Shown here: positions 20,361 to 57,604 of the stretch, in pieces
Position numbering within the stretch: the first letter of the stretch is position 1
Layout: each line of letters opens with the position of its first letter
Virus record (IMG/VR): IMGVR_UViG_3300047463_000151
Span: 1 to 60,042 of that record
Strand: one strand, 5' to 3'
Source of the DNA: a virus
Lineage: Duplodnaviria > Caudoviricetes
DNA length: 60,042 nt
The notes under the pieces: generated by a model
The model's database searches: none
Seen by the model: the letters and a program-made list of their open reading frames with translations, nothing else
What the model was told of the DNA's origin: nothing
Translations under genes and position numbers: made by a program

Positions 20361-20528
20361 ATGATGTCTGCGATCAACGAACCGATGCCACGCATGGAGC
20401 CTATCAAGCGAACGACAACGGCCCCGGTGCGCTCTGTGGGGTTAGTCCCGCCGAGTACATCGGAGGCCGTCAAAATTATATTGTCCGCTGAGGTTCAGTG
20501 GATGAAAAGTAAAGGTATAATCCGATGA
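20361..20528 (+). CDS. Small hypothetical protein (below the ORF-track cutoff)
   Basis: GAGGT RBS, 55 codons, TGA overlapping the thyX ATG. Confidence 0.5.
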   Translation: MMSAINEPMPRMEPIKRTTTAPVRSVGLVPPSTSEAVKIILSAEVQWMKSKGIIR

Positions 20529-21187
20529 GTTGTGCGATAGACGCGGTGTATGCACGACAAGAGCGGCTGAATCACTGTGAACTGATTGGCTACTACGGTG
20601 ACGACGAGACACACGCGCTTTCAGCGTGGACCAGTACATCACGCGACCTCACACCGGATAAGCGCGAACGCATCCCGGCATTGTTGAAGATGCTCGCCGA
20701 GAACGGGCACCACACGCCGTTTGAAAAGTCGGCGCTTCACTTCTTAGTGACGGTCGATACCGCTACGCATATTCACCTATTGAAGCACCGTATTGGCGTT
20801 TCGATCAATGGCGAGTCGGCGCGTTACAAGGAATTGAAGGGCAACAAGGGCTATGTGCCCGAAGATTGGCCGGATGGTGAGCGGCTGGAACTGCTCGCGT
20901 TCTTGGAAGACGCCTGGCAACGCTACCATGCTTGCATCGAACGTCTAGAAGCGCAGGGCGTATCTCGCAAGCGAGCGAAAGAGTCTGCGCGGTTCTACTT
21001 GCCCTATGCGAATCAAATTGTGATGGACGTACAGTTCAATTGGCGTTCATTCCATCATTTCTTGGCGCTACGAAAGAAGCCAGAGGCGCAAGTTGAGGTT
21101 CGCGACATAGCCGCAACGATGCTTGCGCTAGTGCGCGAATTACCAAATCGTCCTTTTGAACATACGATTGCTGCGTTTGGGTATTGA
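20525..21187 (+). CDS. thyX: Flavin-dependent thymidylate synthase
   Basis: GHHTPFE, KHRIGVSINGESARY (ThyX motif), KESARFYLP, NWRSF.HF..LR and AQVEVR. Confidence 0.92.
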   Translation: MSCAIDAVYARQERLNHCELIGYYGDDETHALSAWTSTSRDLTPDKRERIPALLKMLAENGHHTPFEKSALHFLVTVDTATHIHLLKHRIGVSINGESARYKELKGNKGYVPEDWPDGERLELLAFLEDAWQRYHACIERLEAQGVSRKRAKESARFYLPYANQIVMDVQFNWRSFHHFLALRKKPEAQVEVRDIAATMLALVRELPNRPFEHTIAAFGY

Positions 21188-21188
21188 T

Positions 21189-24100
21189 ATGGAAGACATG
21201 CCGTTATTTGCGTCGGTAAAGACTGAGGCGCGTCCGTATACTTTGCTTCATGGCGATTGCTTGGAGGTTCTGAAAACGCTCCCCGATGCGAGTGTAGATG
21301 CGGTTGTCTGTGATCCGCCGTATCTACTTGCCGACACCAGCAAGAGCAATCTCAACTGCCTGTCGCGGATTCTTGCGGAAGTCCAGTTCCCAAAGGACAA
21401 GGGTTGTAATGTTCAATCTGGACAGCAGGGCGACCTTAGCTGCCCAACGATCCAGAGTTCTAATTTGAGCGGGCTTGAGTCCCGTTTCGGGGTAGACGCG
21501 GGGATCTGCGTGCCAAAAAGTGCCATTGACCTCCAAAACACGTCCGTCATCCAGCAAGAAATCTACGCATGCACCGAAGCGTCCTGTGATGGGATCGCGC
21601 ACGCCGACTTGCCGTTGAAAGCCGATTCCAATTTCGCTGAGGATGGCAGCGACTTTATTCTCCAGTCCGCTCACGGCGGGGATACGACCTTCTGCGATGG
21701 CGCGTGTAGTTGTTTCACGGAGCCGTGCTTTGGTCACATCTCTGTGCTTGTCCGTTCCATTCGCTCGACGCATGGCCCAAGTGCGTTGGGCGGCCATAGG
21801 GTTGGGAGGGGCGATTCTTTTGTAGGGCTTAGTGACGACGCGATGTGTCATACCCTTCCTCCTCCCTGCGTAGTGGCAGACGCGGGAACAGTAGATACCT
21901 TCGTGCTTCGACTTGATTTGCGCGGGGGAACGGGTGAACTCCGCGCCGCAATTGGAGCAGACGCACAAAATCCTATTTTCGAGTTGTATCCCTGTCAATT
22001 TCCCACCACACGAACGCGAACAGGTCTTTCCTGCACCGTGCCGCTCAAGACGTACAGGATCAACCAAGTACATAACGAAGCAAATCGGACATTCACGCTC
22101 TATCTTCCTAGCCATGTAACAGACCTCCTCTCAGGCATAACCCGAGGGGGTTTTATGGGCAAGAAATGGGACGGACAAGAGACGCCCCAAGCGAGTTACC
22201 GTTTTCATCGCATGTGGGCTACCGAAGCCCTCCGCGTCCTCAAGCCGGGCGGTCACTTGCTCGCATTCGGGGGAACGCGAACTTACCATCGCCTCGCATC
22301 CGCTGTAGAGGACGCGGGATTTGAGATTAGAGACTCTGTGATTTGGTGCTATGGCTGTTTGTCCGAGGATAGTGAGGCATTGACGAAACGCGGGTGGGTT
22401 AAAGGGCCAGAACTCAGGCACGACGACGAGGTGCTTCAATGGGATGCGCCCAGCGACACGTTCTCGTGGGTCGTTCCTACGAACATCACGCTCGCGCCGT
22501 ATTCGGGTTCGATGATGCGGTTGCTCAACCGGAACACGGATCAATTGTTGACACCGAACCACCGCGTTTACGCGCGCGTGCGAAAGCATAGTCGGAACGA
22601 GTACGATGCGACCTATACGGTGTACGACGCCGAGACGTTAGCCAATCGTTCACAGGCTTGGCATGTCACGCTACCTTGCGCGTCCACTCTGGATGAAGGT
22701 CGCGAAATCGACCCCGAGTACGCCTACATTGTGGGCTGGTGGCTGACCGACGCATGGCCGCACGCTGACGGGAAAGCGTGCATGTTTTCGCAGTCAAAGC
22801 CCGAAACTTTGGAGAAATTACGGGCTGCCTTAGCCCCCCACGGTCCTTCGGAGTACGTCAGACCGGGCAGAAAGCCGACTCATGCCGAAGAACACACGTT
22901 CTATTTGACCGGCCCGTTGGCAAATCGACTGCGGACGGAGTTCCCAGATCGTCGTTTGTCGTGGGACGTTCTCAGTTGGAGTGCCGAAGCGCGGAGGTCA
23001 CTCTACCAAGGGCTTATGGACGGTGACGGTTCACAACCCGAAATCCAACACGCCCACACGTTCTGGACGAAAGACGCAGAGCGCCGTGACGTTTTTCTCG
23101 CGCTCGCGACGACCCTCGGCTACCGCAGTTGTATCGGGGCGACTAAGGACTGTGTTTACGTCAACACCAACACGGCAACAACAGAAGTACAGGGCAAACA
23201 TCGGACAGATTCGCTTGCGTATGAAGGCATGGTCTGGTGTGTGACCGTGCCTTCGGGTGCGTTTCTGGCCCGCCGCGCCGGTAAGCCGTTCATCACCGGG
23301 AATAGTGGATTCCCGAAAAGCCTAGATATATCCAAGGCTATCGACAAACGCGGTGGCGTCATACCGTGGCAGAAGGAATTTGCGAAACACTTGAAGGCGA
23401 CAAGGCCGAAAACGCTCAGTGTGCAGTTTATCAACGACCATGTATCTAACGGTACAAAATCTAACTTCTGGGGCCATTTTATCGACACAACTTCTCAGCC
23501 GTTACTACCTACGGTCGAACAGTACCGTAAATTGCGCGAAATCCTCCCCATCGATCCGTCATGGGATGCACATTTCTTGGTTTCGGCAGACCGCGAAGTA
23601 GTAGGCTATAAGACAGCGGGAATCGCAAACCCGGACGAAGGCAAGCGACACACAATAGGCGCAAGTCAAAGTGTTACGGTCGAAATTACCGCTCCATCTA
23701 CTGACGCCGCCCGACAATGGGAAGGATGGGGAACTGCGCTTAAGCCAGCACACGAGCCAATTGTGGTTGCCCGAAAGCCGTTGGTCGGAACCGTCGCCGC
23801 GAACGTGTTGAAGCATGGAACGGGCGGGTTGAACATTGACGGATGCCGCGTATCGTGGTCAAGCGTTGGCGATCTTGAGCGCGCTAAAATCAATGGCACC
23901 AGTTATGACAAAGCAAGGGCGCGCAATGCTTTAAATAAAAGCGCGTCAATCGGAACAGAAAGCAGAGGTCCATCGGACACCTACGATCCCGCTGAAGGCC
24001 GTTGGCCCGCAAACCTCATGCTCTCGCACTCTGAGTGTTGTGTGCGCGTGGACTCGGATGAGGACACAGACCTGTACGCTTGCGTGCCGGGTTGCCCGAT

Positions 24101-24560
24101 TCGGGCGATGGACGCGCAGAGCGGCCCGTCCGGTGGTTGTGCTCCCGCATCCGGTCCTACGCTTGGTAAGATGGGGAAGCACGGTATCTATGGTAAAGCC
24201 AAGGGTGAGAACATGGAGAGCGTCGCCTTTCATGGAAAGGTTGACGGAGCTTCGCGTTTCTTCATGCGCTTTGACCCCTACGACGCGCCCTTTATCTATG
24301 CGGCGAAGTCCAGTACAAAAGATAGAAGCGCAGGCTTAGAAGAACGCAATTCCCATCCTACGGTCAAGAGCCAACCCTTGATGAAATACTTATGCCGCCT
24401 TGTGACTCCGCCCGGTGGTGTCGTCCTCGACCCGTTCATGGGTTCAGGCTCAACCGGCGTTGCTGCGATTAGCGAAGGCTTCCGCTTTATCGGTATCGAG
24501 CGCGAAGCAGAGTATTTCGACATCGCGAGCAAGCGACTTGCACACGCTGCGAGGGCTTAG
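21189..24560 (+). CDS. Beta-class N6-adenine/N4-cytosine DNA methyltransferase with two insertions
   Basis: GDCLEVL, DPPY, GFMGKKWD, RVLKPGG, SGFPKS, GWGTALKPAHEP, HPTVK and C-terminal VLDPFMGSGSTG. Confidence 0.9.
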   Translation: MEDMPLFASVKTEARPYTLLHGDCLEVLKTLPDASVDAVVCDPPYLLADTSKSNLNCLSRILAEVQFPKDKGCNVQSGQQGDLSCPTIQSSNLSGLESRFGVDAGICVPKSAIDLQNTSVIQQEIYACTEASCDGIAHADLPLKADSNFAEDGSDFILQSAHGGDTTFCDGACSCFTEPCFGHISVLVRSIRSTHGPSALGGHRVGRGDSFVGLSDDAMCHTLPPPCVVADAGTVDTFVLRLDLRGGTGELRAAIGADAQNPIFELYPCQFPTTRTRTGLSCTVPLKTYRINQVHNEANRTFTLYLPSHVTDLLSGITRGGFMGKKWDGQETPQASYRFHRMWATEALRVLKPGGHLLAFGGTRTYHRLASAVEDAGFEIRDSVIWCYGCLSEDSEALTKRGWVKGPELRHDDEVLQWDAPSDTFSWVVPTNITLAPYSGSMMRLLNRNTDQLLTPNHRVYARVRKHSRNEYDATYTVYDAETLANRSQAWHVTLPCASTLDEGREIDPEYAYIVGWWLTDAWPHADGKACMFSQSKPETLEKLRAALAPHGPSEYVRPGRKPTHAEEHTFYLTGPLANRLRTEFPDRRLSWDVLSWSAEARRSLYQGLMDGDGSQPEIQHAHTFWTKDAERRDVFLALATTLGYRSCIGATKDCVYVNTNTATTEVQGKHRTDSLAYEGMVWCVTVPSGAFLARRAGKPFITGNSGFPKSLDISKAIDKRGGVIPWQKEFAKHLKATRPKTLSVQFINDHVSNGTKSNFWGHFIDTTSQPLLPTVEQYRKLREILPIDPSWDAHFLVSADREVVGYKTAGIANPDEGKRHTIGASQSVTVEITAPSTDAARQWEGWGTALKPAHEPIVVARKPLVGTVAANVLKHGTGGLNIDGCRVSWSSVGDLERAKINGTSYDKARARNALNKSASIGTESRGPSDTYDPAEGRWPANLMLSHSECCVRVDSDEDTDLYACVPGCPIRAMDAQSGPSGGCAPASGPTLGKMGKHGIYGKAKGENMESVAFHGKVDGASRFFMRFDPYDAPFIYAAKSSTKDRSAGLEERNSHPTVKSQPLMKYLCRLVTPPGGVVLDPFMGSGSTGVAAISEGFRFIGIEREAEYFDIASKRLAHAARA
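21324..22115 (-). CDS. Vsr/DUF559-like (EDxHD-type) endonuclease with zinc ribbons, antisense inside the methyltransferase
   Basis: CPIC..CSRSC and CSNC..CSRVC zinc motifs; SGLE..VDF..VLEVNGTFWHADP..VLWE nuclease core; GAGGAGGT RBS just upstream of the ATG. Confidence 0.85.
   Translation of the reverse strand: MARKIERECPICFVMYLVDPVRLERHGAGKTCSRSCGGKLTGIQLENRILCVCSNCGAEFTRSPAQIKSKHEGIYCSRVCHYAGRRKGMTHRVVTKPYKRIAPPNPMAAQRTWAMRRANGTDKHRDVTKARLRETTTRAIAEGRIPAVSGLENKVAAILSEIGIGFQRQVGVRDPITGRFGACVDFLLDDGRVLEVNGTFWHADPRVYPETGLKPAQIRTLDRWAAKVALLSRLNITTLVLWELDFRKNPRQAVEIALAGVGK
21324..22133 (-). mobile_element. 810-bp in-frame insertion (endonuclease gene plus RBS) between Tyr and Gly of DPPY|G
   Basis: Removing 21324-22133 restores DPPY-GITRGGFMGKKWD, which fits the family consensus. 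Confidence 0.75.
22356..23303 (+). mobile_element. Intein with LAGLIDADG-type endonuclease domain (316 aa)
   Basis: IWCYG|CLSEDSEALTKRGW, block B TPNHRV, IVGWWLTDA and QGLMDGDG, ending VWCVTVPSGAFLARRAGKPFITGN|S. Removal restores WCYGSGFPKS. Confidence 0.92.
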
Positions 24561-32672: not shown

Positions 32673-32764
32673 TGCCGTAGCCATTTGACGAATACCCTTG
32701 TATAGCGGTAGCCTAAGGAAGATTGTGCAGTGACACGCTGCGCCTATCGTACTAAGGGTTGCCC

Positions 32765-34633
32765 ATGACGACGGAAAACTTCAAATTCTTGAACGACCTC
32801 GATGTGGCAAAGCCTGACGAGGTTCTGGAAAACGGTAGCAAGGTCTATACAGTCCGCTGCCGTCACCCGTTCTCTGGTTTGGACTTCATTCAGACGCGCC
32901 GCATGGAAACCCCGGCCAAGGCTGAGCGGGTCATCATCGACAGCGGCGAAGGCGAAAAACTCGACCCGTCTGCGACCAAGAATCCGAACCGCGATGAAGT
33001 GGATTTGGAGAACCCGGTCCTTTTTGGTACGTCGTCCTCGACCAGCGTTGACTTCTACGGCACCGAAATGTCGAAGGATGCGCTGGAACAGATGGCGCAG
33101 CAAATGTCCCGTGAAGGCGGTATTCCGTACCTTCCACGCCATAATAACGGCATGAACGGTGCTGTGGAGTGGGACGAAGTGATGGGCCGCACGGTGGGCG
33201 CGAAGGTCGTTCGCGTCGATGGCGTCAAGTCTGCTTTCAATGCCTCCGAGGACCAGTATGTGCTTCAGACCGAAGTGCTGCTGTTCAAGGACGACCCCTA
33301 CGCGCAAAAAATGATTCGCGCCTTGGGTCGCGGCGACAAGATTGGTCAGTCCATCGGTGGCTGGTTCACCCAGTTGCAGTTCGTTCAGAACAGCGACAAA
33401 GAAATTGAGAGGGTTATCGTGCGCGGCATTGAACTCGATCATTTGGCGGCGACCCGTGCGCCTGCGAATCCTGACTCTAACGATCTCGCGATGCTGCGGG
33501 CTGCGGCTCGTAGCGTGCTTTCGCAGTTGCCGAAACCGCAATCCGAACGCGCTATTACGGATTATGCGGACTTCCCGCTTGCTCCTGAGAATACGCCGTG
33601 GTCTTGGGTTGCGGCTGACCAAGATGCGGTTCTCGGCCCGAACATGGATTGGGAACGATACAAGCGCGTCCATGCGTACTACGATCCGCAGCAAGCAGAC
33701 TTGAAGCAAGGCTACAAGTTGCCGTTTGCTAAGGTTATCGATGGTCGAATTCATGCAGTTTGGCGTGGCGTGGCGGCGGTCATGGGTATCCTGTTGGGGG
33801 CTCGTGGTGGGGTGGACATCAGCGATGCCGACCGTCGCCGCGCCTACGACCTTATGGTTCGTTACTACGAGCGTTTTGGGAAAACGCCACCGGAGTTCCG
33901 TACTCGCACTGAGCCGGAAATCCGTCACATTCTCGCTATCGAAGACCACCCTGACCACTATTGGGTCAAGTTCGCGAAGATGGCGGAAGGCGAGCAGCAA
34001 GACCCGATGATGGACAGCCCCGCTGCTGATGAGCAGGCGGCGAACGACCCGGCTGAAGATATGGCCGAAGGCGAGGTCGAAGCGCAGCCTAAGATTGAAG
34101 TTTCCGTTGAAGTTTACAGCGTAGGGGCAGATGCCCCGGTTGTTGAGAACTCCCGCAATTTCGCGGGTGATACCCAAGTGGAGCGCAAGATGTCTGACAT
34201 CAACATCGATGCCCTCGCCGCCCTTCTCGATAGCAAACTGGCTCCGCTTGCCGAGCGTGTCGCCCAGCTTGAAGTCGCGAAGGCTCCGAAGGCTGAATCC
34301 GTTGAGGACCGTCTCGCTGCTGCGGAGGCTCGCGCCGCCGCTGCGGAAGGCAAACTCAATACCATCCTTACCTCGTCTCACCGCGTTGGTCGTTCGATGC
34401 CGGGTCAGGTCGGTGGCGGCTTGCAGGCTGCTCACGGTCTGAAGGGCGTTGTCGAGGCGAACCGTGCGAAGAACTCGCTGGTTGCGACCGTCGCCGAACA
34501 CATGGTCGATGGCCTCAACAAGCGCGGCGAGCACATCCCCGCTGACCTTCCGATGCAGCTTGGCAACCTTTTGGAAGCCGCTGTTGCCGAAGGGTTGATT
34601 ACCACCCCCGAAACCCGCTCTGCGTGGTCGTGA
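32765..34633 (+). CDS. Prohead protease/scaffold fusion
   Basis: SSTSVD..G, H and GQSIGG protease motifs and PANPD; middle YKLPFAKVIDG..AVWRGV domain; acidic and coiled-coil C-terminus; lies between portal and capsid. Confidence 0.85.
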   Translation: MTTENFKFLNDLDVAKPDEVLENGSKVYTVRCRHPFSGLDFIQTRRMETPAKAERVIIDSGEGEKLDPSATKNPNRDEVDLENPVLFGTSSSTSVDFYGTEMSKDALEQMAQQMSREGGIPYLPRHNNGMNGAVEWDEVMGRTVGAKVVRVDGVKSAFNASEDQYVLQTEVLLFKDDPYAQKMIRALGRGDKIGQSIGGWFTQLQFVQNSDKEIERVIVRGIELDHLAATRAPANPDSNDLAMLRAAARSVLSQLPKPQSERAITDYADFPLAPENTPWSWVAADQDAVLGPNMDWERYKRVHAYYDPQQADLKQGYKLPFAKVIDGRIHAVWRGVAAVMGILLGARGGVDISDADRRRAYDLMVRYYERFGKTPPEFRTRTEPEIRHILAIEDHPDHYWVKFAKMAEGEQQDPMMDSPAADEQAANDPAEDMAEGEVEAQPKIEVSVEVYSVGADAPVVENSRNFAGDTQVERKMSDINIDALAALLDSKLAPLAERVAQLEVAKAPKAESVEDRLAAAEARAAAAEGKLNTILTSSHRVGRSMPGQVGGGLQAAHGLKGVVEANRAKNSLVATVAEHMVDGLNKRGEHIPADLPMQLGNLLEAAVAEGLITTPETRSAWS

Positions 34634-34640
34634 GGCAACA

Positions 34641-35624
34641 ATGAAAAGCGAATTCCAATGGGCGTCGTTTGACCCCTCTCGCCGTGAAGCGTTTGAGCGT
34701 GCCATCACCGTTTCCGGTGCGGGCAACGTGCTTCTCCAGACCTTCATCAACAAAACCGTTCAGCAAATCTCGAACCGCGAAGAAGGCGTCTACTCGACCC
34801 TCGCTCGTCGTCCGGGTCAGGGCAACGGTGCCTATATCAATCAGCGTTCTGAGCCGGGCACGCTCGCTCAGTGGGTGAATGATACGGACTCGATCAGTGA
34901 GTTCACCGGCGCTTACGCTCAGAAGTCCTTCCTGTACCGCACGCTCGCGACCAAGGGTCGTGTGACGCGCTACATGCAGGCTCAGGGCCGTAGCTACGGC
35001 GACATCCTCGCTGGCGAAATGGCGGCTAAGGCCGCTGACTTCGCTGCCGCGATGGAATCCGCCCTCGTTATCGGCAACAACGCGGCGACCCCGAAGCAGT
35101 TTGATGGCCTCATCACGCTCGCCCAGGAAACCTCGTCGCAAATCATCCTTCAGACGACCGCTGCCGGTGGTGATGCGTTCACCCTCGAAAAGTTGGATGA
35201 AGCGATTGACGCGGTGAAGGGTTCGGGCTCCCGCTCGGACATCCTTATCTTCGCGTCCCGCAAGGGTCGTCGCTTGATCAATGCGGCTCTCCAGAGCCAG
35301 CAGATGTTCAACGACATGACGGAAATCGCGGCGGGCTTCCGAGTTCGCACCTACGACGGTATCCCGTTGGTCACGACCACCGGAATGCCCGACACCCTGA
35401 CCTTCAACGGGTCTAAGGTGTCTGCGTTCTCGGGCGCTGCGACCACCGCCATCTGCGTCGTCAATACCCGCGACATCTACATCGAAGAACTGACCCCGCT
35501 GACGGTTATGCCGCTTGCGAAGTCGTCCTCGCAGTACGATGAATTCGATATGTTTGCGGACGCGGTGCTTGTCGCTGCGAACCCGCTTGCCATGTCGGTG
35601 CTCGTCGGTATCGACGCGGCCTGA
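34641..35624 (+). CDS. Major capsid protein
   Basis: 327 aa, position after the protease, ALVIGN....FDGL and YDGIPLV, biased codon use, followed by a terminator. Confidence 0.88.
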   Translation: MKSEFQWASFDPSRREAFERAITVSGAGNVLLQTFINKTVQQISNREEGVYSTLARRPGQGNGAYINQRSEPGTLAQWVNDTDSISEFTGAYAQKSFLYRTLATKGRVTRYMQAQGRSYGDILAGEMAAKAADFAAAMESALVIGNNAATPKQFDGLITLAQETSSQIILQTTAAGGDAFTLEKLDEAIDAVKGSGSRSDILIFASRKGRRLINAALQSQQMFNDMTEIAAGFRVRTYDGIPLVTTTGMPDTLTFNGSKVSAFSGAATTAICVVNTRDIYIEELTPLTVMPLAKSSSQYDEFDMFADAVLVAANPLAMSVLVGIDAA

Positions 35625-35654
35625 TAGGCTGCTGGCGCACCCAAGCAAGTGCGG

Positions 35655-37918: not shown

Positions 37919-40435
37919 ATGTATGAGCTTGGCATTGTGCTGGTAGGCACAGACGCGAATGACCTTGGAACCGCTTTTTACCAAGTTCTGAACTCAAAGC
38001 TACCTTCGTTTGCAGTGATGTACGTTCCGGCGGGTTTCGCCGACGAAGCGTGGATGTTCTCGACGCTGACGCAGCAAGCGCCGCATCCGGCACGGTGGAG
38101 CTGCTACGAGCGCAAGGCAAACGATACGCAGGCGCAGTCCATCGGTCGTGCTCTGAATGAATTGCACGAAGTCTACGGGACGACCATCAAGCACTACGCG
38201 GTGATTTCTGCCGACGTTTTGACTGCTTCCGATTGGTTCGACGGTATGCGAGCGGCGCTCGACGCAAAGACCGTTCGTAACGAGGCGGGCGAATTCAAGT
38301 GTTTGCTCTATGGGCGACCGGCCTACGTTGGCCCTGTATCGGATGGTATTGCGTTGCCAGCACAGCACCTTGACCTCGACAAAGCGGACACGGACCTCGG
38401 CGTACAAGGCTACGCAGCACATCGAGCAAAACACCTACACGGCGTAGCAGGTATCGCGGATACGCTAGACCCATGTTTCGTGCTTGGTTCATCCGAAGAT
38501 ATGGTTCGTCTATCTAATCACTTGTCCGGTGAGGCTACGAGCGACCGTTACCGATGGTCGCAAGCGTGGCAAGACGACACCAAAGAAGCCCGCGCTATTG
38601 TCGCTGAGGGCGTCTATGCAGCACGAACGAAACCCAATCGTCCAGGCGCATGGACTCCCGGCGATGGTCTAGCGCGACTCGATGATGCAACGCGCTACGT
38701 CGACGCCAGAAGCCCTCAGCGTGTCGTCGCGACCATTGTGGCTACGTTGGATACGGCGCGGTCCATCGACCTCCTAAAAGCCTGTCTGGCGTCCTGCGCT
38801 GGCGTAGTTGATGGTATTGCCCTTGTGATCGACGGCGACCCTACGCAGGCCCTAGACGAAGCCATAGCGGCCAAGGTTTCGTTGCAGCCTGACGACGAGA
38901 AGATGCTCAAGGGTTGTGTCGGCGTATTGGCCGAAGCGATGAGCGCACGGGTCACGACTTGGGCGAAGCGAATTGCGCTCGCGGTGACGGGGAACAAGGA
39001 ATTCGTGTGCGAGGCCAGCGTCTACGGTGGCCCTGACGCACTAGAAGCACGCCAACGCGCCTATGATCTCGCCGACTCGCTTGGCGCACGCTGGTTGCTG
39101 TTTCTGGAAGGCGACGAAATGCTCGATACCTCGGTGTCGCGTGCGTACATTCAGCGCCTTGCGAACCATCCAGACCGTAGTGTTCTGGCCTACGACTTTG
39201 GGTTCATCACGCACTACAACTCGCCGATTCAAATCCGCGTAGATGGAGCACGCGGAACGACGATGGAGCGCGGACCCAGCGGCATCCGTATGGTTCGGAA
39301 TCTTGGCGGGAACCGCACGCAGCCCGGATTTTCAGTAAACGGTGGACTGACGATAGCGCCGCTGTTCAGCGAAGAATCGGTACGCGCTGCGAATGTGCGT
39401 ATCCGCAAGTTTGACCTAATGCGTCCACAAGACCGGCTCCACGTTAGCGAAACGGCTGAATCTGTGTCGGTTTACGCCTACCATGACCAGACGCGAATGG
39501 GGTTTCACTGTCTCGCGTATCCTCGCGAAAACCTTGATGACGTTGGCCGCTGGCTCGACTACGCCACTGGTATTTGCGACGACGCCGTGTTGGTGTGGAC
39601 AGATGAAGCAGAGCCATCACCCGAATGGAAGAGGCTTGCTGCCATATACCAGGCGCGCATTGTCCACCATCCGTTGCGCGATAACCTTGCCGCTGCACGC
39701 AACGCAGGCATCGACGCGCTCAGTGAGAACAAGTCGCTAACGTGGGCGTGGTTCGTAGACCCCGATGAATGGTTCGATAAGCCGCTACACGACGCGCAGG
39801 CGATGCGCCGTATGGCTGAATCCGTGCGTTATGGGTATCTCGTCCAAACGTGCAATTATCGCCAGAGTGGACCGCCTTCGGTGAGCGATAGCGTGCGTAT
39901 TTCGCGTCTATTGCCAACGATTCGCATGGATGGTCGCGTACACGAAGGGTTTTCAGATGCTTGGAAGCGATTGCAGGCCGCTGGCATTCACCCTCGACTC
40001 GTCTATGCGCCTTTCATGGTTCAGCATCGCGGCATGGCGTTCAGCGCCGACAGGATGCGTGAAAAGCTCGAAAAGTACGAGCATCTTTTGCGCTTGGAAC
40101 TTGCCGATAGACCAGAAAACCCCGGCGCGTGGACCTCGCTCGCTATGCACTTCATGAACGACGGGCACAAAGACCTCGCCGTAGAGTGCTTGCGTCGTGG
40201 CGTGGCTTGCGCGGGTACGAGCTATCTGCCCTACCGCGAACTCGCCTATTGGCACCTCCGCGAAGCACAGGCCCTATTAGACCAGTCCATCGACCGTTTG
40301 TCCGAAGGTCATCAGTGGTACAAAATGGCGGCTGAGTTGCAAAGAGTGCTACGCAAGCATGTAGAGCCTGCGTCTATCGTTGCACCCATTAGTGATAGGC
40401 CAGTTGCATCGTTGCCGAAGTTCCGTGATAGTTAG
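37919..40435 (+). CDS. Multi-domain family 2 glycosyltransferase with TPR-like C-terminus
   Basis: WLLFLEGDEML; LAAARNAGID..WAWFVDPDEW..GRVHE..H; TPR-like RPENPGAWTSLAMHF; GGAGGT RBS. Confidence 0.8.
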   Translation: MYELGIVLVGTDANDLGTAFYQVLNSKLPSFAVMYVPAGFADEAWMFSTLTQQAPHPARWSCYERKANDTQAQSIGRALNELHEVYGTTIKHYAVISADVLTASDWFDGMRAALDAKTVRNEAGEFKCLLYGRPAYVGPVSDGIALPAQHLDLDKADTDLGVQGYAAHRAKHLHGVAGIADTLDPCFVLGSSEDMVRLSNHLSGEATSDRYRWSQAWQDDTKEARAIVAEGVYAARTKPNRPGAWTPGDGLARLDDATRYVDARSPQRVVATIVATLDTARSIDLLKACLASCAGVVDGIALVIDGDPTQALDEAIAAKVSLQPDDEKMLKGCVGVLAEAMSARVTTWAKRIALAVTGNKEFVCEASVYGGPDALEARQRAYDLADSLGARWLLFLEGDEMLDTSVSRAYIQRLANHPDRSVLAYDFGFITHYNSPIQIRVDGARGTTMERGPSGIRMVRNLGGNRTQPGFSVNGGLTIAPLFSEESVRAANVRIRKFDLMRPQDRLHVSETAESVSVYAYHDQTRMGFHCLAYPRENLDDVGRWLDYATGICDDAVLVWTDEAEPSPEWKRLAAIYQARIVHHPLRDNLAAARNAGIDALSENKSLTWAWFVDPDEWFDKPLHDAQAMRRMAESVRYGYLVQTCNYRQSGPPSVSDSVRISRLLPTIRMDGRVHEGFSDAWKRLQAAGIHPRLVYAPFMVQHRGMAFSADRMREKLEKYEHLLRLELADRPENPGAWTSLAMHFMNDGHKDLAVECLRRGVACAGTSYLPYRELAYWHLREAQALLDQSIDRLSEGHQWYKMAAELQRVLRKHVEPASIVAPISDRPVASLPKFRDS

Positions 40436-54670: not shown

Positions 54671-57604
54671 ATGCCTTCCGTTGGTTCACTTCTCAGTCTT
54701 TCGTCGCTCGGTCTTCCGCAGCGCACTAGCAGCGATGCGAATGCCACTCTGTCCGGTGACATCTCGGGCCTTGGCTCGTTGTCATCCTCGTCGCTGACCG
54801 CTTCTGGCGCGGTGACCGGTGGTTCGTTGGCCGTGTCGGGCGCTTCCGTTATCCACGCTCTGACCGCTGATGGCATTACCGCGCAGTCGCTTTCTGCTTC
54901 TGGTTCGCTTTCTGCTGGAACGACTCTTGCCGTGACTGGTGCGGCTACCCTGTCCAGCACCCTTGGTGTCACGGGTGCATCGACCCTCGGCGTGCTGAAC
55001 GCTGGTGCGTCTACCCTTGCTTCGGCGTCGGTGACGAACGCCCTTAGCGCGGGTAGCTTCTCGGTGAGTGGCGCTTCGGTTGTTCATGCGCTCACAGCGG
55101 ACGGCATCACCGCTCAGTCGCTGTCGGCTTCGGGCAATGGTAGCTTCGGTGGCACCCTCGCGGTGACGGGGCTCTCGACCCTCGCCGATGTGAACGCCGC
55201 GAACATGGACCTCAGCGGCGACCTCGATGTTACTGGTGCGGCTTCATTCAGCGGCGCGATTACTGCTGATGACATTAGCGCGGCGGATTTTTCCGCTTCG
55301 GGTAACGTCTCGGTTTCCGGCACGCTGTCGGTTGACCTTGGCTCGACACTGCACGCCGTTAGCGCGACCGATATTGACGCTTCGTCGGTGTCGGCGACTG
55401 GCGATGTTTCGTCGGACACCCTGCACGTTACCTCGCTCTCGGACCTCCACGACGTTGATATGTCGGGCGATCTCGACGTAACCGGCTCGTCGAACTTCCA
55501 AGGCGCGATGACCGCCGCTGCGATCACAGCGTCGGGTGCGGTATCGTTCTCGTCCACCTTGGGTGTTAGCGGATTGCTCTCTGCGGTCAATGCGAATTTC
55601 AGCGACGATGTGGTCATTCAAGGCGACCTCACGGTGCAGGGAACGACAATCAGCACGCAGTCTGACCTTGCATTGGCGGATCGTTTCATCGTTCAGAACT
55701 ACACGCTCACCAATCCTTCGGCTGGTTATCAGACGGCGGGTGGCGTGTACGTCGTCAAGGCTCACAGCGCTCAATACACCGTCACCTCGGTTGATGGCGC
55801 GTTGGAGCGGTTCATTGTTTCCGCTGACCCGCAAAACGACGTTGCGGTGGACGACGTTATCTCCGTGTACGGCTTGGCTCAGCCGACCAACAATGGTCTG
55901 TTCCAGGTCGCCGCTGTCGGTGCCAACTACATTCAGGTGAAGAACGGCACAGGCGCTCTCGTTGGTATCGTAGACTCGTCCAATCTCACCAGCGAAACCG
56001 CTCCGGCGAACTGCAAGCTCGCGAACGTCGAATTCAAGGTGCTCCGCGCCGACGCCAACGGGACTTCGTTCTCGCTCGGCTATGGCTACAGCGCTTCTTC
56101 GATGGTGTTTGACGAAATCACCCCGGCCAGCGCGATTACGCTGCAACAGGCGTACAACAACGGCGCGGAAATCGCGACCTCTGGCTCGGTCAACGTCCTC
56201 GTCAGCGGGACTGAGGCCCTGGAAGTTACCGCGAACGGTGGTATCCTCTCCAATAGCCTCGACCTGTCCAGCACGCTCGACGTTGGCGGTGCGGCTTCCT
56301 TCGCCAACAACATCACGCAGTCGAACGCGGCCTCCAGCATCTCGTTTGCGGCTCCGCTTTCCACCACCAATACCGCCTCGTTCGGCGGCAATACCTCGGT
56401 GGCCGGTACGCTTACGCAGACGGGTGGTGGCGATGTCCACTTCTCGGGCGATGTGACCGCACAACTCGACCTCGATGTACTCGGTGACACTGCGTTGACC
56501 GGCGCTTTGTCGGGCTCTTCGGCTACGTTCTCGGGCGCGTTGTCGTCCGGTGCGGCTACCCTGCTCAGCGCGGATGTTACCAATAACCTCGATGTGGGCG
56601 GTGACGCCGATGTGGTTGGGTCGCTCTCTTCCGGTGCGGCTACCGTCGCTTCGTTGGCGGTTAGCGCGAATGCGACCGTTACAGGCGACCTCAGCGTTAC
56701 CGGGTTGTCGCACTTCACGGGTGCGATGGATGGCTCTGTTGCTATCTTCAGCAGCTACATCGAAGCGGACTCTGCCTCCTTCGCTGGTGAAATGGCTTCG
56801 GCCTCTATCGACGTAAGCGGTAACGCCGACATCGGTGGAAGCGCGGTGGTTTTGGGCACGTTCCAGTCGGGCGCGGCGACTCTCGCTTCTGCGTCTGTGA
56901 CCAACAATGCCTCCGTTGGCGGCACGCTGTCGGTGACTGGCACAACTACGCTCTCCGATGCGCTTGGCGGTACTTCCGCTTCGTTCTCCGGTGCGCTCGA
57001 TGCTGACTCTGCCAGCTTCGATAACGCGGTCGGCGCGGCTTCTGCGTCGATCTCGGGTGAAATGGCGGCTGGTTCCGGTGTATTCTCCGACGCGGGAACG
57101 GCGCTTCAGGTTGACCACGACGCAAACATCGACGGTAACCTCGCGGTCGGCGGGAACCTGACGGTTGGCGGCGACATTGCGCTCGATGAACTCACCGTGC
57201 TTCGCATGGGCGTTACATGCACGGCAGCGGAAGCCATCGCGGCGGGCAGCATCGTTTGCCTCAGCAGCGGCACCAAGAAGGTCAGCAAGTCCCTCGCAGA
57301 CGACGCGGTTCTCCCGGCCTTCCGTCGCGCCTTTGGTGTATGCCGTGACTCGCTGTCGTCCAATGGTTCTGGCTACGTCGCCATCGCGGGCTTCGCCTCC
57401 GTGAACCTTGCGTCGTCGCAGTCGGGTACAGCCGGTGCGCCGGTTTACCTCTCGGCGGATACGGCGGGCGCTTGTACGCTTTCCGCTCCGAATGGCGCGG
57501 GTAACGCGGTTGTCCAAGTGGGCTACCTCGCGGAAGATATTAGCAGCGTCACAGCGGCGGTTGTCGCTCTCGCGCCGCAGTTCATCGCGCAAATCCCGGC
57601 CTAG
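54671..57604 (+). CDS. Long fibre protein with beta-repeat shaft and DUF2190-like C-terminal domain
   Basis: 977 aa, Ser/Gly/Ala/Thr-rich GxLxVxG repeats; duplicated SVxHALTADGITAQSLSASG; AGGAG RBS. Confidence 0.8.
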   Translation: MPSVGSLLSLSSLGLPQRTSSDANATLSGDISGLGSLSSSSLTASGAVTGGSLAVSGASVIHALTADGITAQSLSASGSLSAGTTLAVTGAATLSSTLGVTGASTLGVLNAGASTLASASVTNALSAGSFSVSGASVVHALTADGITAQSLSASGNGSFGGTLAVTGLSTLADVNAANMDLSGDLDVTGAASFSGAITADDISAADFSASGNVSVSGTLSVDLGSTLHAVSATDIDASSVSATGDVSSDTLHVTSLSDLHDVDMSGDLDVTGSSNFQGAMTAAAITASGAVSFSSTLGVSGLLSAVNANFSDDVVIQGDLTVQGTTISTQSDLALADRFIVQNYTLTNPSAGYQTAGGVYVVKAHSAQYTVTSVDGALERFIVSADPQNDVAVDDVISVYGLAQPTNNGLFQVAAVGANYIQVKNGTGALVGIVDSSNLTSETAPANCKLANVEFKVLRADANGTSFSLGYGYSASSMVFDEITPASAITLQQAYNNGAEIATSGSVNVLVSGTEALEVTANGGILSNSLDLSSTLDVGGAASFANNITQSNAASSISFAAPLSTTNTASFGGNTSVAGTLTQTGGGDVHFSGDVTAQLDLDVLGDTALTGALSGSSATFSGALSSGAATLLSADVTNNLDVGGDADVVGSLSSGAATVASLAVSANATVTGDLSVTGLSHFTGAMDGSVAIFSSYIEADSASFAGEMASASIDVSGNADIGGSAVVLGTFQSGAATLASASVTNNASVGGTLSVTGTTTLSDALGGTSASFSGALDADSASFDNAVGAASASISGEMAAGSGVFSDAGTALQVDHDANIDGNLAVGGNLTVGGDIALDELTVLRMGVTCTAAEAIAAGSIVCLSSGTKKVSKSLADDAVLPAFRRAFGVCRDSLSSNGSGYVAIAGFASVNLASSQSGTAGAPVYLSADTAGACTLSAPNGAGNAVVQVGYLAEDISSVTAAVVALAPQFIAQIPA

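What the first reader, a model, noticed from the sequence alone, without database searches (positions are those of the whole stretch)
21324..22133. Antisense endonuclease inserted in-frame at the methyltransferase active site with no splicing element
Seen: an 810-bp insert begins right after the DPPY Tyr codon, and removing it restores DPPYGITRGGFMGKKWD. The insert is only a minus-strand 263-aa zinc-ribbon/Vsr-like nuclease gene, whose TAG abuts DPPY, plus 18 nt with a GAGGAGGT RBS. The host frame is open for all 270 codons in codon-to-codon register, so the nuclease gene uses no TTA, CTA or TCA codon although these occur elsewhere in this genome. There is no room for an intron core, no intein termini (the insert starts Leu, ends Ser, next residue Gly) and no terminal repeats. 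Established: EDxHD/Vsr-like homing endonucleases target conserved phage genes and are known from introns or split-intein fractured genes. Inference: a different homing strategy, in which the element sits antisense and is translated as a passenger loop of the host protein, or is bypassed.
Basis: partly seen in the sequence, partly recalled or inferred. Interest (0 to 1): 0.88.

Follow-up and report, generated by a model that had tools for sequence, protein, structure and literature searches.

The report
Mirror-strand homing nuclease inside phage methyltransferase
A selfish DNA-cutting enzyme gene sits backwards inside a phage DNA methyltransferase gene and avoids three codons, so the host gene can be read straight through it; this splicing-free arrangement has so far been described for only a few other phage methylases.

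Summary
A 263-aa zinc-ribbon plus Vsr-fold nuclease gene (21324-22115, minus strand) lies in codon register inside a 1134-aa N6/N4 DNA methyltransferase ORF (21156-24560), directly after DPPY.

The window alone is weak evidence, because other genes here also have long open mirror frames. Comparison settles it.
- In 71 other non-redundant loci plus the window, relatives of this nuclease sit at the same DPPY / FMGKxWD site with no antisense stop, at GC 0.38-0.69. About 118 such stops were expected in the 27 loci tested.
- Relatives outside this arrangement carry up to 14 stops.
- The nuclease frame is under purifying selection. The host frame across the insert is only kept open.
- Near-identical nucleases sit in methyltransferases that are 70-80% identical, and 78 of 79 close methyltransferase relatives are unoccupied. 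It is therefore a homing element.
- No intron or intein feature was found.

Best reading: the element keeps the host gene readable through synonymous codon choice and is translated as an unstructured loop. Translation and methylase activity are not shown.

It is a new variant of a known kind. The precedents are the ShiLan hidden-HNH insertion (2025) and inteins with antisense Vsr-like nucleases (2025 preprint). A free-standing sister clade has hop-like or split junctions at the same site.

The parts
21189..21323 (+). Methyltransferase N-terminal segment, from the first ATG after thyX to the DPPY codons (21312-21323)
   Evidence: The choice of ATG 21189 as start is my inference; the ORF listing starts the ORF at TTG 21156. 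The segment aligns with the N-termini of relatives that end in DPPY.
21324..22115 (-). Homing-type nuclease gene, 263 aa, with zinc ribbons and a Vsr-fold domain. Its stop codon TAG (21324-21326) is the mirror of the host Leu codon that follows DPPY.
   Evidence: 107 homologues. Conserved Cys pairs and an EVNGTxWHxD block. AF2 mean pLDDT 84.8. Best fold matches are Vsr 1vsr and 1cw0. The profile matches 1cw0 at E=5e-4. dN/dS is 0.13-0.4 for most pairs.
22116..22133 (-). Nuclease leader with the ribosome-binding site (mirror of GAGGAGGT at 22123-22130). It reads VTDLLS in the host frame.
22134..22151 (.). Linker that reads GITRGG in the host frame. In many relatives this position holds, on the nuclease strand, an extended -10 box (TGGTATAAT type). 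In the window it is degenerate.
   Evidence: The promoter scan found nothing here.
22152..22355 (+). Methyltransferase resumes at FMGKKWD and continues to WCYG.
22356..23303 (+). Second insertion in the same gene: a 316-aa intein-like element. It has Cys at position 1, ends in Asn, is followed by Ser, and carries a LAGLIDADG-like stretch.
   Evidence: Pfam LAGLIDADG_3 matches at E=9e-4, below the curated cut-off. Uninterrupted relatives read YGSGFPKS across this point.
23304..24560 (+). Methyltransferase C-terminal part, with HPTVK and the DPFMGSGSTG motif.
   Evidence: Pfam PF01555 matches at E=5.5e-30.

Best explanation
The insert is a mobile homing-endonuclease gene. It encodes a nuclease with zinc ribbons and a Vsr-fold domain, and it carries its own ribosome-binding site and, in relatives, its own promoter. 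Its target is the DNA that encodes the DPPY-x-L-x-FMGKxWD loop of a family of phage N6/N4 DNA methyltransferases.

The gene sits on the opposite strand, codon for codon in register with the host gene. In that register, a stop in the host frame arises only from TTA, CTA or TCA in the nuclease gene. The element never uses these codons, so ribosomes that translate the methyltransferase pass through it. The 260-290 extra residues are carried as an unstructured loop, without sequence constraint, between DPPY and FMGKxWD. In this way the element avoids knocking out its host gene without needing an intron or an intein.

What is shown:
- the nuclease gene is real;
- the insertion site is fixed;
- the element is mobile;
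- selection acts against stops in the host frame;
- intron and intein features are absent.

What is inferred:
- cleavage of the empty site;
- translation through the insert;
- activity of the methyltransferase that carries the loop.
For: Real nuclease gene:
- 107 homologues with conserved Cys pairs and an EVNGTxWHxD block.
- Vsr is the best match by profile (1cw0, E=5e-4) and by fold (1vsr and 1cw0, probability 1.0).

Fixed site:
- Of 119 loci examined there were 24 duplicates and 2 cut loci, leaving 93 non-redundant.
- 71 of these have DPPY-like codons abutting the nuclease stop codon, or FMGKxWD within 25 codons of its start, and no antisense stop (60 with both junctions, 10 with one, plus L195).

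Selection for an open host frame:
- In 27 embedded genes, 0 TTA/CTA/TCA codons were observed against a summed expectation of about 118 from the Leu and Ser codon usage of flanking ORFs (my sum of the rows).
- Single loci reach P=4e-9 (L005, GC 0.39).
- The other two antisense frames carry 1-36 stops.
- Relatives not embedded in this way carry up to 14 stops: L159 11, L176 10, L178 14, L166 6, L201 11.

Which frame is constrained:
- dN/dS is 0.13-0.4 in the nuclease frame for most pairs.
- It is mostly 0.7-1.4 in the host frame across the insert, lower in the closest pairs.

Mobility:
- L009, L011 and L013 have nucleases 98% identical (dS 0.016-0.027) inside methyltransferase C-parts that are 70-80% identical (dS 0.5-1.0).
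- For L015 and L019 the figures are 91% against 54%.
- Of 79 close methyltransferase relatives with a readable junction, 1 is occupied (the query's own contig), 74 have a 3-residue loop and 4 have natural loops of 18-29 residues.

No splicing element:
- No Rfam match and no Pfam match to the host-frame insert.
- The insert starts with Leu or Ser and is followed by Gly or Phe.
- AF2 on a host protein with its insert gives pLDDT 23-44 over the insert and about 90 and 68-96 for the flanking methyltransferase parts.

Host genes mostly whole:
- 42 of 48 evaluable host ORFs run 330 aa or more past the insert.

Weak support:
- One contig from an RNA library lies unbroken on 21232-21598, across the upstream junction.
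Against: - No tool here shows that the fusion protein is made or that it methylates DNA.
- The loop sits next to the catalytic DPPY motif, where 270 extra residues could well abolish activity.
- The window on its own is not significant: 15% of equal-length windows in its other long ORFs are equally free of the three codons.
- The embedded class was defined with 'no antisense stop' as a criterion. The fair count is therefore 71 loci plus the window with open frames, against 2 loci (L166, L178) in which a methyltransferase N-terminal segment abuts the nuclease stop codon but the mirror frame has 6 and 14 stops and no FMGKxWD follows.
- 6 of 48 evaluable host ORFs end early (L007, L155, L167, L170, L180, L190).
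- Purifying selection on the methyltransferase parts (dN/dS 0.06-0.6) largely predates the invasions, so it does not prove function after invasion.
- The window's own -10 region is degenerate, and no promoter was found upstream of its nuclease.
- The RNA contig carries no strand information, and DNA can be present in RNA libraries.
Confidence: 0.6

Rival explanations
1. Read-through matters only for the messenger, not for the protein. The open frame keeps ribosomes on the RNA, which prevents polarity or decay and so protects expression of the genes downstream. The fusion methyltransferase itself is inactive or dispensable.
For: The host-frame peptide shows no sequence constraint (dN/dS mostly 0.7-1.4) and no predicted structure. 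The insert abuts the catalytic motif. According to the discussion section of PMC11855218, the related actinophage methylase is not essential. 6 of 48 host ORFs end early.
Against: 42 of 48 evaluable host ORFs stay whole to a normal methyltransferase C-terminus with the catalytic and AdoMet motifs. A stop followed by a restart would serve polarity equally well, yet 0 stops occur in 71 loci plus the window. Where the mirror frame has decayed (L166, L178), the rest of the methyltransferase is missing too.
Confidence: 0.15
2. The insert is removed after all. This could happen by an unrecognised RNA splicing or ribosomal bypass event, or by protein splicing or proteolysis, giving a normal methyltransferase.
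For: Nothing direct supports it. The same methyltransferase carries an intein-like element elsewhere. Free-standing relatives show hop-like codon pairs at this same site.
Against: - No Rfam family matches.
- 792 of the 810 nt are nuclease ORF, which leaves no room for a ribozyme core.
- RNA splicing or bypass would not need an open frame, yet the frame is always open.
- There is no nucleophile at either junction and no Hint-domain match.
- The host frame evolves without constraint, which is incompatible with conserved splicing blocks.
- An RNA-library contig runs unbroken over the upstream junction (weak).
Confidence: 0.1
3. The nuclease is not selfish. It is a working partner of the methyltransferase, for example in a restriction-like or repair-like pair, and the nested arrangement serves co-regulation.
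For: Nearly all family members lie in or next to this one methyltransferase family. The divergent class places the two start codons -2 to 18 nt apart in 15 of 16 loci (56 nt in L172). In the only record looked at of 10 mycobacteriophages with a similar match, a distant homologue also lies inside a methylase of this family.
Against: Only 1 of 79 close methyltransferase relatives is occupied. The nuclease is far more similar between loci than its host gene is. The host gene is interrupted, not accompanied. This pattern is the one used to infer homing in PMC9957025 and PMC11855218.
Confidence: 0.07
4. The open mirror frame is a by-product of codon usage and has no function.
For: In this window the capsid gene, the tail-fibre gene and one further ORF have open mirror frames of 327-782 codons. 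P(0) for the window is only 0.016.
Against: Zero stops are seen at GC 0.38-0.48, where 6-15 were expected per gene. The total is 0 against about 118 expected in 27 genes. Relatives outside the arrangement have 6-14 stops. The open frame continues in phase into host sequence on both sides.
Confidence: 0.03

Closest known systems
ShiLan domain and Pacc40 insertion: 'hidden' HNH endonuclease insertions in actinophage DNA methylases (Arsenault, Gosselin and Gogarten 2025, PMC11855218; Gosselin et al. 2023, PMC9957025). For the first I read the abstract, sections 1, 3.6 and 4, and passages; for the second, passages only.
   Same: - It is an insertion in a phage DNA methylase at conserved residues.
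- It has no stop in the host frame and no detectable intron or intein.
- It has a disjunct distribution, and the insert is more conserved than the host gene.
- The host-frame product is predicted to be a poorly structured loop.
- Relatives of the endonuclease stand free just upstream of the methylase in other phages.
   Different: - There, the endonuclease is an HNH enzyme on the same strand in another frame, with no recognisable ribosome-binding site. Here it is a Vsr-fold enzyme on the opposite strand in codon register, with its own ribosome-binding site and, in relatives, its own promoter.
- Here the host frame is kept open by excluding three codons, and this could be tested statistically over a wide GC range.
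- The site is the loop right after DPPY.
- I could not establish where the ShiLan domain sits in the methylase. 'DPPY' does not occur in either text.
Inteins whose homing endonuclease is encoded on the antisense strand, including antisense Vsr-like ones (bioRxiv 10.1101/2025.01.02.630785, passages read; that text cites Gorbalenya 1998 and Gogarten 2002 for antisense LAGLIDADG cases)
   Same: - An antisense nuclease ORF lies inside an in-frame insertion that the ribosome must read through.
- The nuclease has a Vsr-like core at about residues 144-267 of a longer protein. Here the Vsr match covers 149-253.
- The host-frame peptide has no recognisable structure.
   Different: Those elements keep flanking intein splicing domains that excise the insert from the protein. 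Here nothing but the nuclease gene and 6-25 linker codons lies between the host residues, with no nucleophiles and no Hint match. The reported hosts there are polymerase, minor capsid, terminase and thymidylate synthase, not methylase.
Vsr-like / EDxHD homing endonucleases of 'fractured genes' and I-Bth0305I (Dassa et al. 2009, PMC2677866; Taylor et al. 2011, PMC3239194; search listings and abstract starts only)
   Same: It has a Vsr-superfamily catalytic domain, occurs in phage and metagenome sequence, and targets conserved genes.
   Different: Those genes lie in group I introns or between split-intein halves. The match to I-Bth0305I (3r3p) is marginal (E=0.03 over 61 residues). Membership of that particular family is not established.
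T4 gene 60 bypass element with the mobA endonuclease (bioRxiv 10.1101/2022.08.31.505936, search listing and abstract start; the link to mobA is recalled)
   Same: This applies only to the free-standing sister clade. There the nuclease gene lies beside its target gene, and the target site is interrupted by a short stop-containing spacer flanked by synonymous codons.
   Different: The spacers are 5-17 nt, not 50 nt. No nascent-peptide or stem-loop signal was examined. A split or relic gene is an equally good reading. This does not apply to the window's 810-nt insert.

Membership tests
Vsr-superfamily nuclease | Vsr-like catalytic fold | tested here: met
   The A1 profile matches 1cw0 at E=5e-4 and 1vsr at 1.3e-3 over residues 149-253. 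Foldseek's best hits are 1vsr and 1cw0 with probability 1.0 and TM 0.56 normalised to the target. The model has mean pLDDT 84.8.
EDxHD family (I-Bth0305I type) | The family's signature motif and a clear sequence relationship to I-Bth0305I | tested here: inconclusive
   3r3p matches only at E=0.032 over residues 155-215. The invariant block here is E195-V-N-G-T-x-W-H202-x-D204, with D185. The wording of the motif is recalled, not taken from a call.
Homing endonuclease gene (mobile element) | Present or absent at one fixed site in a conserved gene | tested here: met
   71 loci plus the window are occupied at DPPY / FMGKxWD. 78 of 79 close methyltransferase relatives are empty at that site.
Homing endonuclease gene (mobile element) | The element is more similar between genomes than its host gene (horizontal spread) | tested here: met
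   Nuclease identity against host C-part identity is 98% against 70-80%, 91% against 54%, and 85% against 59%.
Homing endonuclease gene (mobile element) | Cleaves the empty allele at or near the insertion point | not testable with these tools
   This needs an enzyme assay.
Intein | Cys, Ser or Ala at position 1; terminal Asn, Gln or Asp followed by Cys, Ser or Thr | tested here: not met
   The insert begins with Leu or Ser (the mirror of the nuclease stop codon). It is followed by Gly-Phe-Met or Phe-Met.
Intein | Hint splicing domain in the host frame | tested here: not met
   No Pfam or PHROG match to the host-frame insert. pLDDT is 23-44. Host-frame dN/dS is mostly 0.7-1.4. At most 25 codons lie outside the nuclease ORF.
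Group I or group II intron | Ribozyme core | tested here: not met
   There are 0 Rfam matches at E<=1 in 20900-22600 on both strands. 792 of the 810 nt are ORF.
ShiLan-type read-through insertion | A stop-free, unspliced insertion in a phage DNA methylase that hides an endonuclease ORF | tested here: met
   The description is in PMC11855218.
ShiLan-type read-through insertion | The endonuclease is an HNH enzyme on the same strand in another frame | tested here: not met
   Here it is a Vsr-fold enzyme on the opposite strand in codon register.
Gene-60-type translational bypass (free-standing relatives only) | A take-off codon followed by a stop, and a matching landing codon that restores the normal protein | tested here: inconclusive
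   A stop directly follows DPPY-x in 14 of 16 divergent loci. The landing codon is synonymous in 12 of 14 evaluable loci. However, the same genes break again downstream, or end early.

The most novel reading that the evidence does not exclude
A widespread lineage of homing endonucleases has done without introns and inteins altogether. By lying mirror-wise in codon register and never using TTA, CTA or TCA, it makes itself translationally transparent. A methyltransferase then remains active with 260-290 residues of essentially unselected sequence looped out next to its catalytic DPPY motif. This would be a third, splicing-free route to phenotypic silence for selfish genes. Its free-standing sister clade would protect the same target site with a stop-containing promoter spacer. 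I put the chance that ribosomes hop over that spacer at about 0.2, taken separately.
Probability: 0.45. Interest if true: 0.8.

Novelty: new variant of a known kind. Interest (0 to 1): 0.62.

Why it matters
Homing endonuclease genes are thought to persist in essential or useful genes only when an intron or an intein removes them from the RNA or the protein. The ShiLan work raised the possibility of a splicing-free alternative from a handful of actinophages.

This family offers a much larger and cleaner case:
- It comprises dozens of diverged environmental phage loci over GC 0.38-0.69.
- The cost of being readable reduces to one simple rule, namely no TTA, CTA or TCA.
- That rule can be broken experimentally without changing the nuclease protein.

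Three questions therefore become directly testable:
- whether read-through is what keeps such elements harmless;
- how much foreign sequence an active-site loop can bear;
- how mirror-strand overlapping genes are maintained.

There is also a practical point for annotation. Gene callers either split these methyltransferases or miss the nuclease. The window's own call was a 149-aa fragment (P0003).

Tried and rejected
- Intron: the Rfam scan of 20900-22600 found nothing.
- Intein: no Pfam or PHROG match to the host-frame insert, and the junction residues are wrong.
- Terminal repeats: none at the insert ends.
- Promoter for the window's nuclease: the consensus scan found only an internal site at 21998-21970. 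My strict pattern for an extended -10 matched 19 of 64 linkers. Several of those were anchored on the wrong CATRAA, so that count is rough.
- Cultured phages: tblastn with the window nuclease against 50,697 phage records gave no match at E<=1e-5. At E<=1 it gave 40 records, the best full-length one being Microcystis phage MaeS at 22% identity.
- RNA evidence: the other parts of the stretch had no cover in the RNA run X6, and none of the four runs showed a joint. That proves nothing.
- Whether the ShiLan domain sits at the DPPY site: not resolved. No accession is given in the texts read. The SassyB region that I fetched was not followed up.
- Selection on the methyltransferase after invasion: dN/dS cannot separate the time before invasion from the time after it.
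- My first motif test for complete hosts was too strict: 22, then 27, of 66 passed. I replaced it with ORF length.
- The hop reading for divergent loci was weakened when the same genes turned out to break again or end early.
- Supplementary files of the papers were not opened. They may hold the ShiLan insertion coordinates and the antisense Vsr-like sequences.
- Literature searches for an antisense, intein-less nuclease of this kind found no description beyond the two precedents named.
Full report
WHAT IS IN THE WINDOW. The window is a phage contig. It encodes a major capsid protein (34641-35624), a tail fibre (54671-57604) and a ThyX thymidylate synthase (20525-21187). Directly after thyX, a + strand ORF of 1134 aa (21156-24560) matches the N6/N4 DNA methyltransferase family PF01555 at E=5.5e-30.

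The DPPY codons lie at 21312-21323 and FMGKKWD starts at 22152. Between them, on the minus strand, lies a 263-aa ORF (21324-22115). Its TAG is the mirror of the Leu codon that follows Tyr, and its start codon is preceded by GAGGAGGT. The + frame is open throughout. The ends of the insert carry no direct or inverted repeats.

THE MINUS-STRAND ORF IS A REAL GENE.
- It has 107 homologues at E<=0.001 among 959 candidates, mostly 250-270 aa long.
- An alignment of 24 of them shows invariant Cys pairs, which suggest zinc ribbons, and an invariant block of D185 followed by E195-V-N-G-T-x-W-H-x-D.
- A profile of that alignment matches E. coli Vsr (1cw0 at E=5e-4, 1vsr at 1.3e-3). It matches the I-Bth0305I catalytic domain only marginally (3r3p, E=0.03).
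- The AlphaFold model has mean pLDDT 84.8. Its best fold matches are 1vsr and 1cw0.
- The host-frame translation of the insert matches nothing in Pfam or PHROGs.

THE WINDOW ALONE DOES NOT PROVE SELECTION. TTA, CTA and TCA make up 1.86% of codons in the other ORFs of the window. A model matched for Leu and Ser content gives P=0.016 for none in 263 codons. However, 886 of 5961 sliding 263-codon windows in the 16 other long ORFs are equally free of them. Nearly all of these come from the tail-fibre gene and from an unassigned ORF pair at 32744-34753. The 327-aa capsid gene likewise has a full-length open mirror ORF.

COMPARISON WITH OTHER LOCI. I fetched loci that encode relatives of the nuclease from three collections:
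- viral contigs: 64 loci;
- one-per-species genomes: 4 loci;
- metagenome contigs: the best 80 of 269.

In a first pass over the 39 loci with a long match, 35 had no stop in the codon-register mirror frame. That frame stayed open for 1-3 kb beyond the gene, while the other two mirror frames held 1-36 stops. This held at GC from 0.38 to 0.68.

In the open cases the mirror frame reads a methyltransferase N-terminus ending in DPPY-G/E/N(-L) right up to the nuclease stop codon. It then resumes with (G)FMGKxWD 6-25 codons after the mirror of the nuclease start codon. The stop codon itself supplies the Leu (TTA or CTA) or the Ser (TCA) of the host's DPPY-x-L-S.

A classifier run over all 119 loci found 24 duplicates and 2 cut loci, leaving 93 non-redundant. 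It gave 60 loci with both junctions and no mirror stop, 10 with one junction (because of a contig end or a motif variant), 12 'divergent' and 11 unclear. On inspection, L195 joins the embedded class, and L172, L201, L205 and L228 join the divergent class.

Because the class definition required zero stops, I looked separately at every locus that had stops.
- L166 (6 stops) and L178 (14 stops) have a methyltransferase N-terminal segment abutting the nuclease stop codon, but nothing methyltransferase-like follows on the other side.
- L159 (11 stops) and L176 (10 stops) have no methyltransferase in their flanks.
- L028 lies beside the 3' end of a methyltransferase gene.

The honest tally is therefore 71 loci plus the window with an open frame, against 2 decayed loci.

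For the 27 embedded genes tested, the expected number of TTA, CTA and TCA codons, given each locus's own codon usage, sums to about 118 (my sum of the rows). None was observed. Single AT-rich loci reach P=4e-9.

WHICH FRAME IS UNDER SELECTION. Pairwise Nei-Gojobori estimates give dN/dS of 0.13-0.4 for most pairs in the nuclease frame. For the same codons read in the host frame the value is mostly 0.7-1.4, and lower in the closest pairs. The host frame is kept free of stops but is otherwise unconstrained.

A structure prediction for a host protein with its insert (L006, 713 aa, with an alignment of 28 such proteins) agrees:
- residues 1-31 have pLDDT of about 90;
- the insert (residues 32-321) has pLDDT 23-44;
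- the methyltransferase core after it has pLDDT 68-96.

MOBILITY. Nearly identical nucleases sit in clearly diverged host genes:
- L009, L011 and L013 have nucleases 98% identical (dS 0.016-0.027), while their methyltransferase C-parts are 70-80% identical (dS 0.5-1.0);
- L015 and L019: 91% against 54%;
- L024 and L213: 85% against 59%.

I also examined the 80 viral-contig loci closest to one host's C-part, out of at least 595 relatives. Of these, 79 had a readable junction: 74 read DPPY-x-L-x-FMGKxWD, 4 have natural loops of 18-29 residues, and 1 is occupied (the query's own contig). This is the signature of a homing element. It also shows that the loop tolerates some natural length variation.

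NO SPLICING DEVICE.
- Rfam finds nothing in or around the insert.
- At most 25 codons lie outside the nuclease ORF.
- The junction residues exclude a canonical intein.
- The unconstrained host frame excludes conserved splicing blocks.
- RNA splicing or ribosomal bypass would not require an open frame.
- One contig of a metatranscriptome library covers 21232-21598 without a break, that is, 92 bases of host and 275 bases of insert. It carries no strand information, and DNA may contaminate such libraries, so this is only a weak hint that unspliced RNA exists.

ANATOMY OF THE ELEMENT. In many relatives the linker carries an extended -10 box of the TGGTATAAT type on the nuclease strand, about 15 bases from the mirror of the host's Phe-Met codons. 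It reads Ile-Ile-Pro in the host frame. A -35-like TTGCCC is the mirror of the host's Gly-Lys codons. The whole element (promoter, leader, ORF and stop) is thus written so as to be readable in the host frame. In the window this box is degenerate, and no promoter was detected.

The codon register is the one mirror frame in which stops can be avoided purely by synonymous choice, since Leu and Ser both have other codons. That explains why this register is used. This last point is my inference.

HOST GENES. Of the 66 embedded loci examined, 18 run off the contig. Of the 48 that reach a stop, 42 continue 330 aa or more past the insert to a normal methyltransferase C-terminus, and 6 end early. The window's host is complete. 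It also holds a 316-aa intein-like element at 22356-23303.

THE FREE-STANDING SISTER CLADE. In a nuclease tree of 88 rows (FastTree), 14 of 15 divergent loci form one clade with support 99, set among embedded clades. The embedded rows L010, L169, L189, L200, L217 and L227 were left out as near-copies or fragments, and L201 was still labelled 'other' in that tree.

In this clade the nuclease gene lies head to head with the methyltransferase gene. The start codons are -2 to 18 nt apart (56 nt in L172). The mirror frame holds 0-5 stops, or 11 in L201.

The methyltransferase is interrupted at the very same site.
- In 14 of 16 loci a stop codon follows DPPY-x directly.
- After a spacer of 5-17 nt that carries the same -10-type box, a codon synonymous with x is followed by the normal two residues and FMGKxWD. 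This holds in 12 of 14 evaluable loci.
- L219 has a near-cognate codon, L172 has none, and L199 is uninterrupted.

This looks like the take-off and landing pair of a short ribosomal hop, and it recalls T4 gene 60. There are, however, two objections.
- In several of these loci the methyltransferase frame ends again 146-255 aa further on, after the RKP motif. It then either restarts through an ATGA overlap with a duplicated RKP (L216, L228) or is followed by unrelated ORFs (L023, L194, L219, L018).
- The duplicated codons could also be a scar of the insertion event.

A split or relic gene is therefore at least as likely as a hop.

Relics link the two classes. L201 keeps a degenerate N-terminal segment at the nuclease's 3' end. 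L172 keeps an FM-x-x-x-WD remnant next to its 5' end.

WHAT IS KNOWN. Two recent reports from one group come close.
- PMC11855218 (abstract and sections 1, 3.6 and 4 read) describes the 'ShiLan domain'. It is a stop-free insertion in an actinophage DNA methylase with no intron or intein features and a disjunct distribution. It holds a hidden HNH gene on the same strand in another frame, and is predicted to loop out of the methylase. A second case, Pacc40, has relatives that stand free upstream of the methylase.
- bioRxiv 10.1101/2025.01.02.630785 (passages read) reports inteins whose endonuclease, LAGLIDADG or Vsr-like, is encoded on the antisense strand. In these the flanking splicing domains are intact.

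The present element combines the two: it has an antisense Vsr-fold nuclease as in the second report, and no splicing domain as in the first. My searches found no description of this combination, of the DPPY-loop target, or of the three-codon rule.

No cultured phage holds a close relative. Ten mycobacteriophages (17 records) give near-identical weak matches. In Donovan, the one record I inspected, a 28%-identical homologue lies antisense within a methylase of this same family but at another site. There the annotated gp58 is its mirror ORF and the methylase is annotated in pieces.

VERDICT. The element is a homing nuclease gene that stays readable in its host's frame. The step from 'readable' to 'a working methyltransferase with a passenger loop' is inferred, and I put it at about 0.6. 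It is a new variant of a recently described kind, documented here far more broadly than before, and it comes with a clean experimental handle.

Noticed in passing
window 22356-23303: The same methyltransferase carries a second insertion of 316 aa between WCYG and SGFPKS. It starts with Cys, ends with Asn, is followed by Ser, and has a weak LAGLIDADG_3 match (E=9e-4, below the cut-off). It is intein-like. L032 and L064 have similar inserts at the same point.
   Followed up: partly
L018, L023, L032, L064, L192, L194, L205, L206, L209, L216, L219, L226, L228 (methyltransferase junction about 130-200 nt from the nuclease start, opposite strand): Free-standing relatives lie head to head with a methyltransferase gene. 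In that gene the DPPY-x codon is followed directly by a stop and a 5-17 nt spacer. A synonymous codon then follows (12 of 14 evaluable loci) and the normal x-x-FMGKxWD. The junction resembles the take-off and landing pair of a short ribosomal hop, or else a split gene.
   Followed up: partly
L216 and L228, about 560-720 nt into the methyltransferase; also L023, L194, L219, L018: The same divergent-class methyltransferases break a second time after the conserved RKP motif. L216 and L228 restart through an ATGA stop-start overlap with RKP duplicated. In the others the methyltransferase ends there and unrelated ORFs follow (in L018, another methyltransferase with SPPY).
   Followed up: partly
L201 (beyond the nuclease stop codon) and L172 (next to the nuclease start codon): These are relics that link the two arrangements. 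L201 has a degenerate methyltransferase N-terminal segment (ending DVRF) at the nuclease's 3' end plus an intact one at its 5' end. L172 keeps an FM-x-x-x-WD remnant beside the nuclease start, ahead of a complete methyltransferase gene.
   Followed up: partly
window 34599-35648, 55244-57592, 32744-34753: Three more pairs of long mirror ORFs in codon register lie opposite the capsid gene (327 aa, mirror ORF 349 aa), the tail-fibre gene (977 aa, mirror ORF 782 aa) and an unassigned ORF pair (624 and 669 aa). The mirror ORFs have no family match. For the unassigned pair it is not clear which strand is the gene.
   Followed up: partly
L230 (Mycobacterium phage Donovan, KF841477.1, record 39062-39859, minus strand): A 265-aa homologue of the nuclease (28% identical) lies antisense inside a methylase of the same family, but near its C-terminal HPTVKP region. 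The annotated gp58 'hypothetical protein' is its codon-register mirror ORF, and the methylase is annotated in pieces (gp57, gp59, gp60). Nine more mycobacteriophages (Techage, Fishburne, Langerak, juyeon, Kari, Willsammy, KilKor, Seagreen, Malithi/Camster) gave the same kind of match but were not looked at.
   Followed up: partly
Linkers of embedded loci, e.g. L006, L007, L174, L179, L193 (about 15 nt from the mirror of the host Phe-Met codons): An extended -10 box (TGGTATAAT) for the nuclease gene is written so that it reads Ile-Ile-Pro in the host frame. The -35-like hexamer is the mirror of the host's conserved Gly-Lys codons.
   Followed up: partly
window 21337-21395 (run X2, contig record 7): A DNA contig from another sample matches only 59 bases inside the nuclease's 3' end, with 5 differences, and runs on into unlike sequence on both sides. 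This suggests that a related but different element is present in that sample.
   Followed up: no
window 21185-21191: The thyX stop codon and the first ATG of the methyltransferase are one base apart, so the two genes are probably read as one unit.
   Followed up: no
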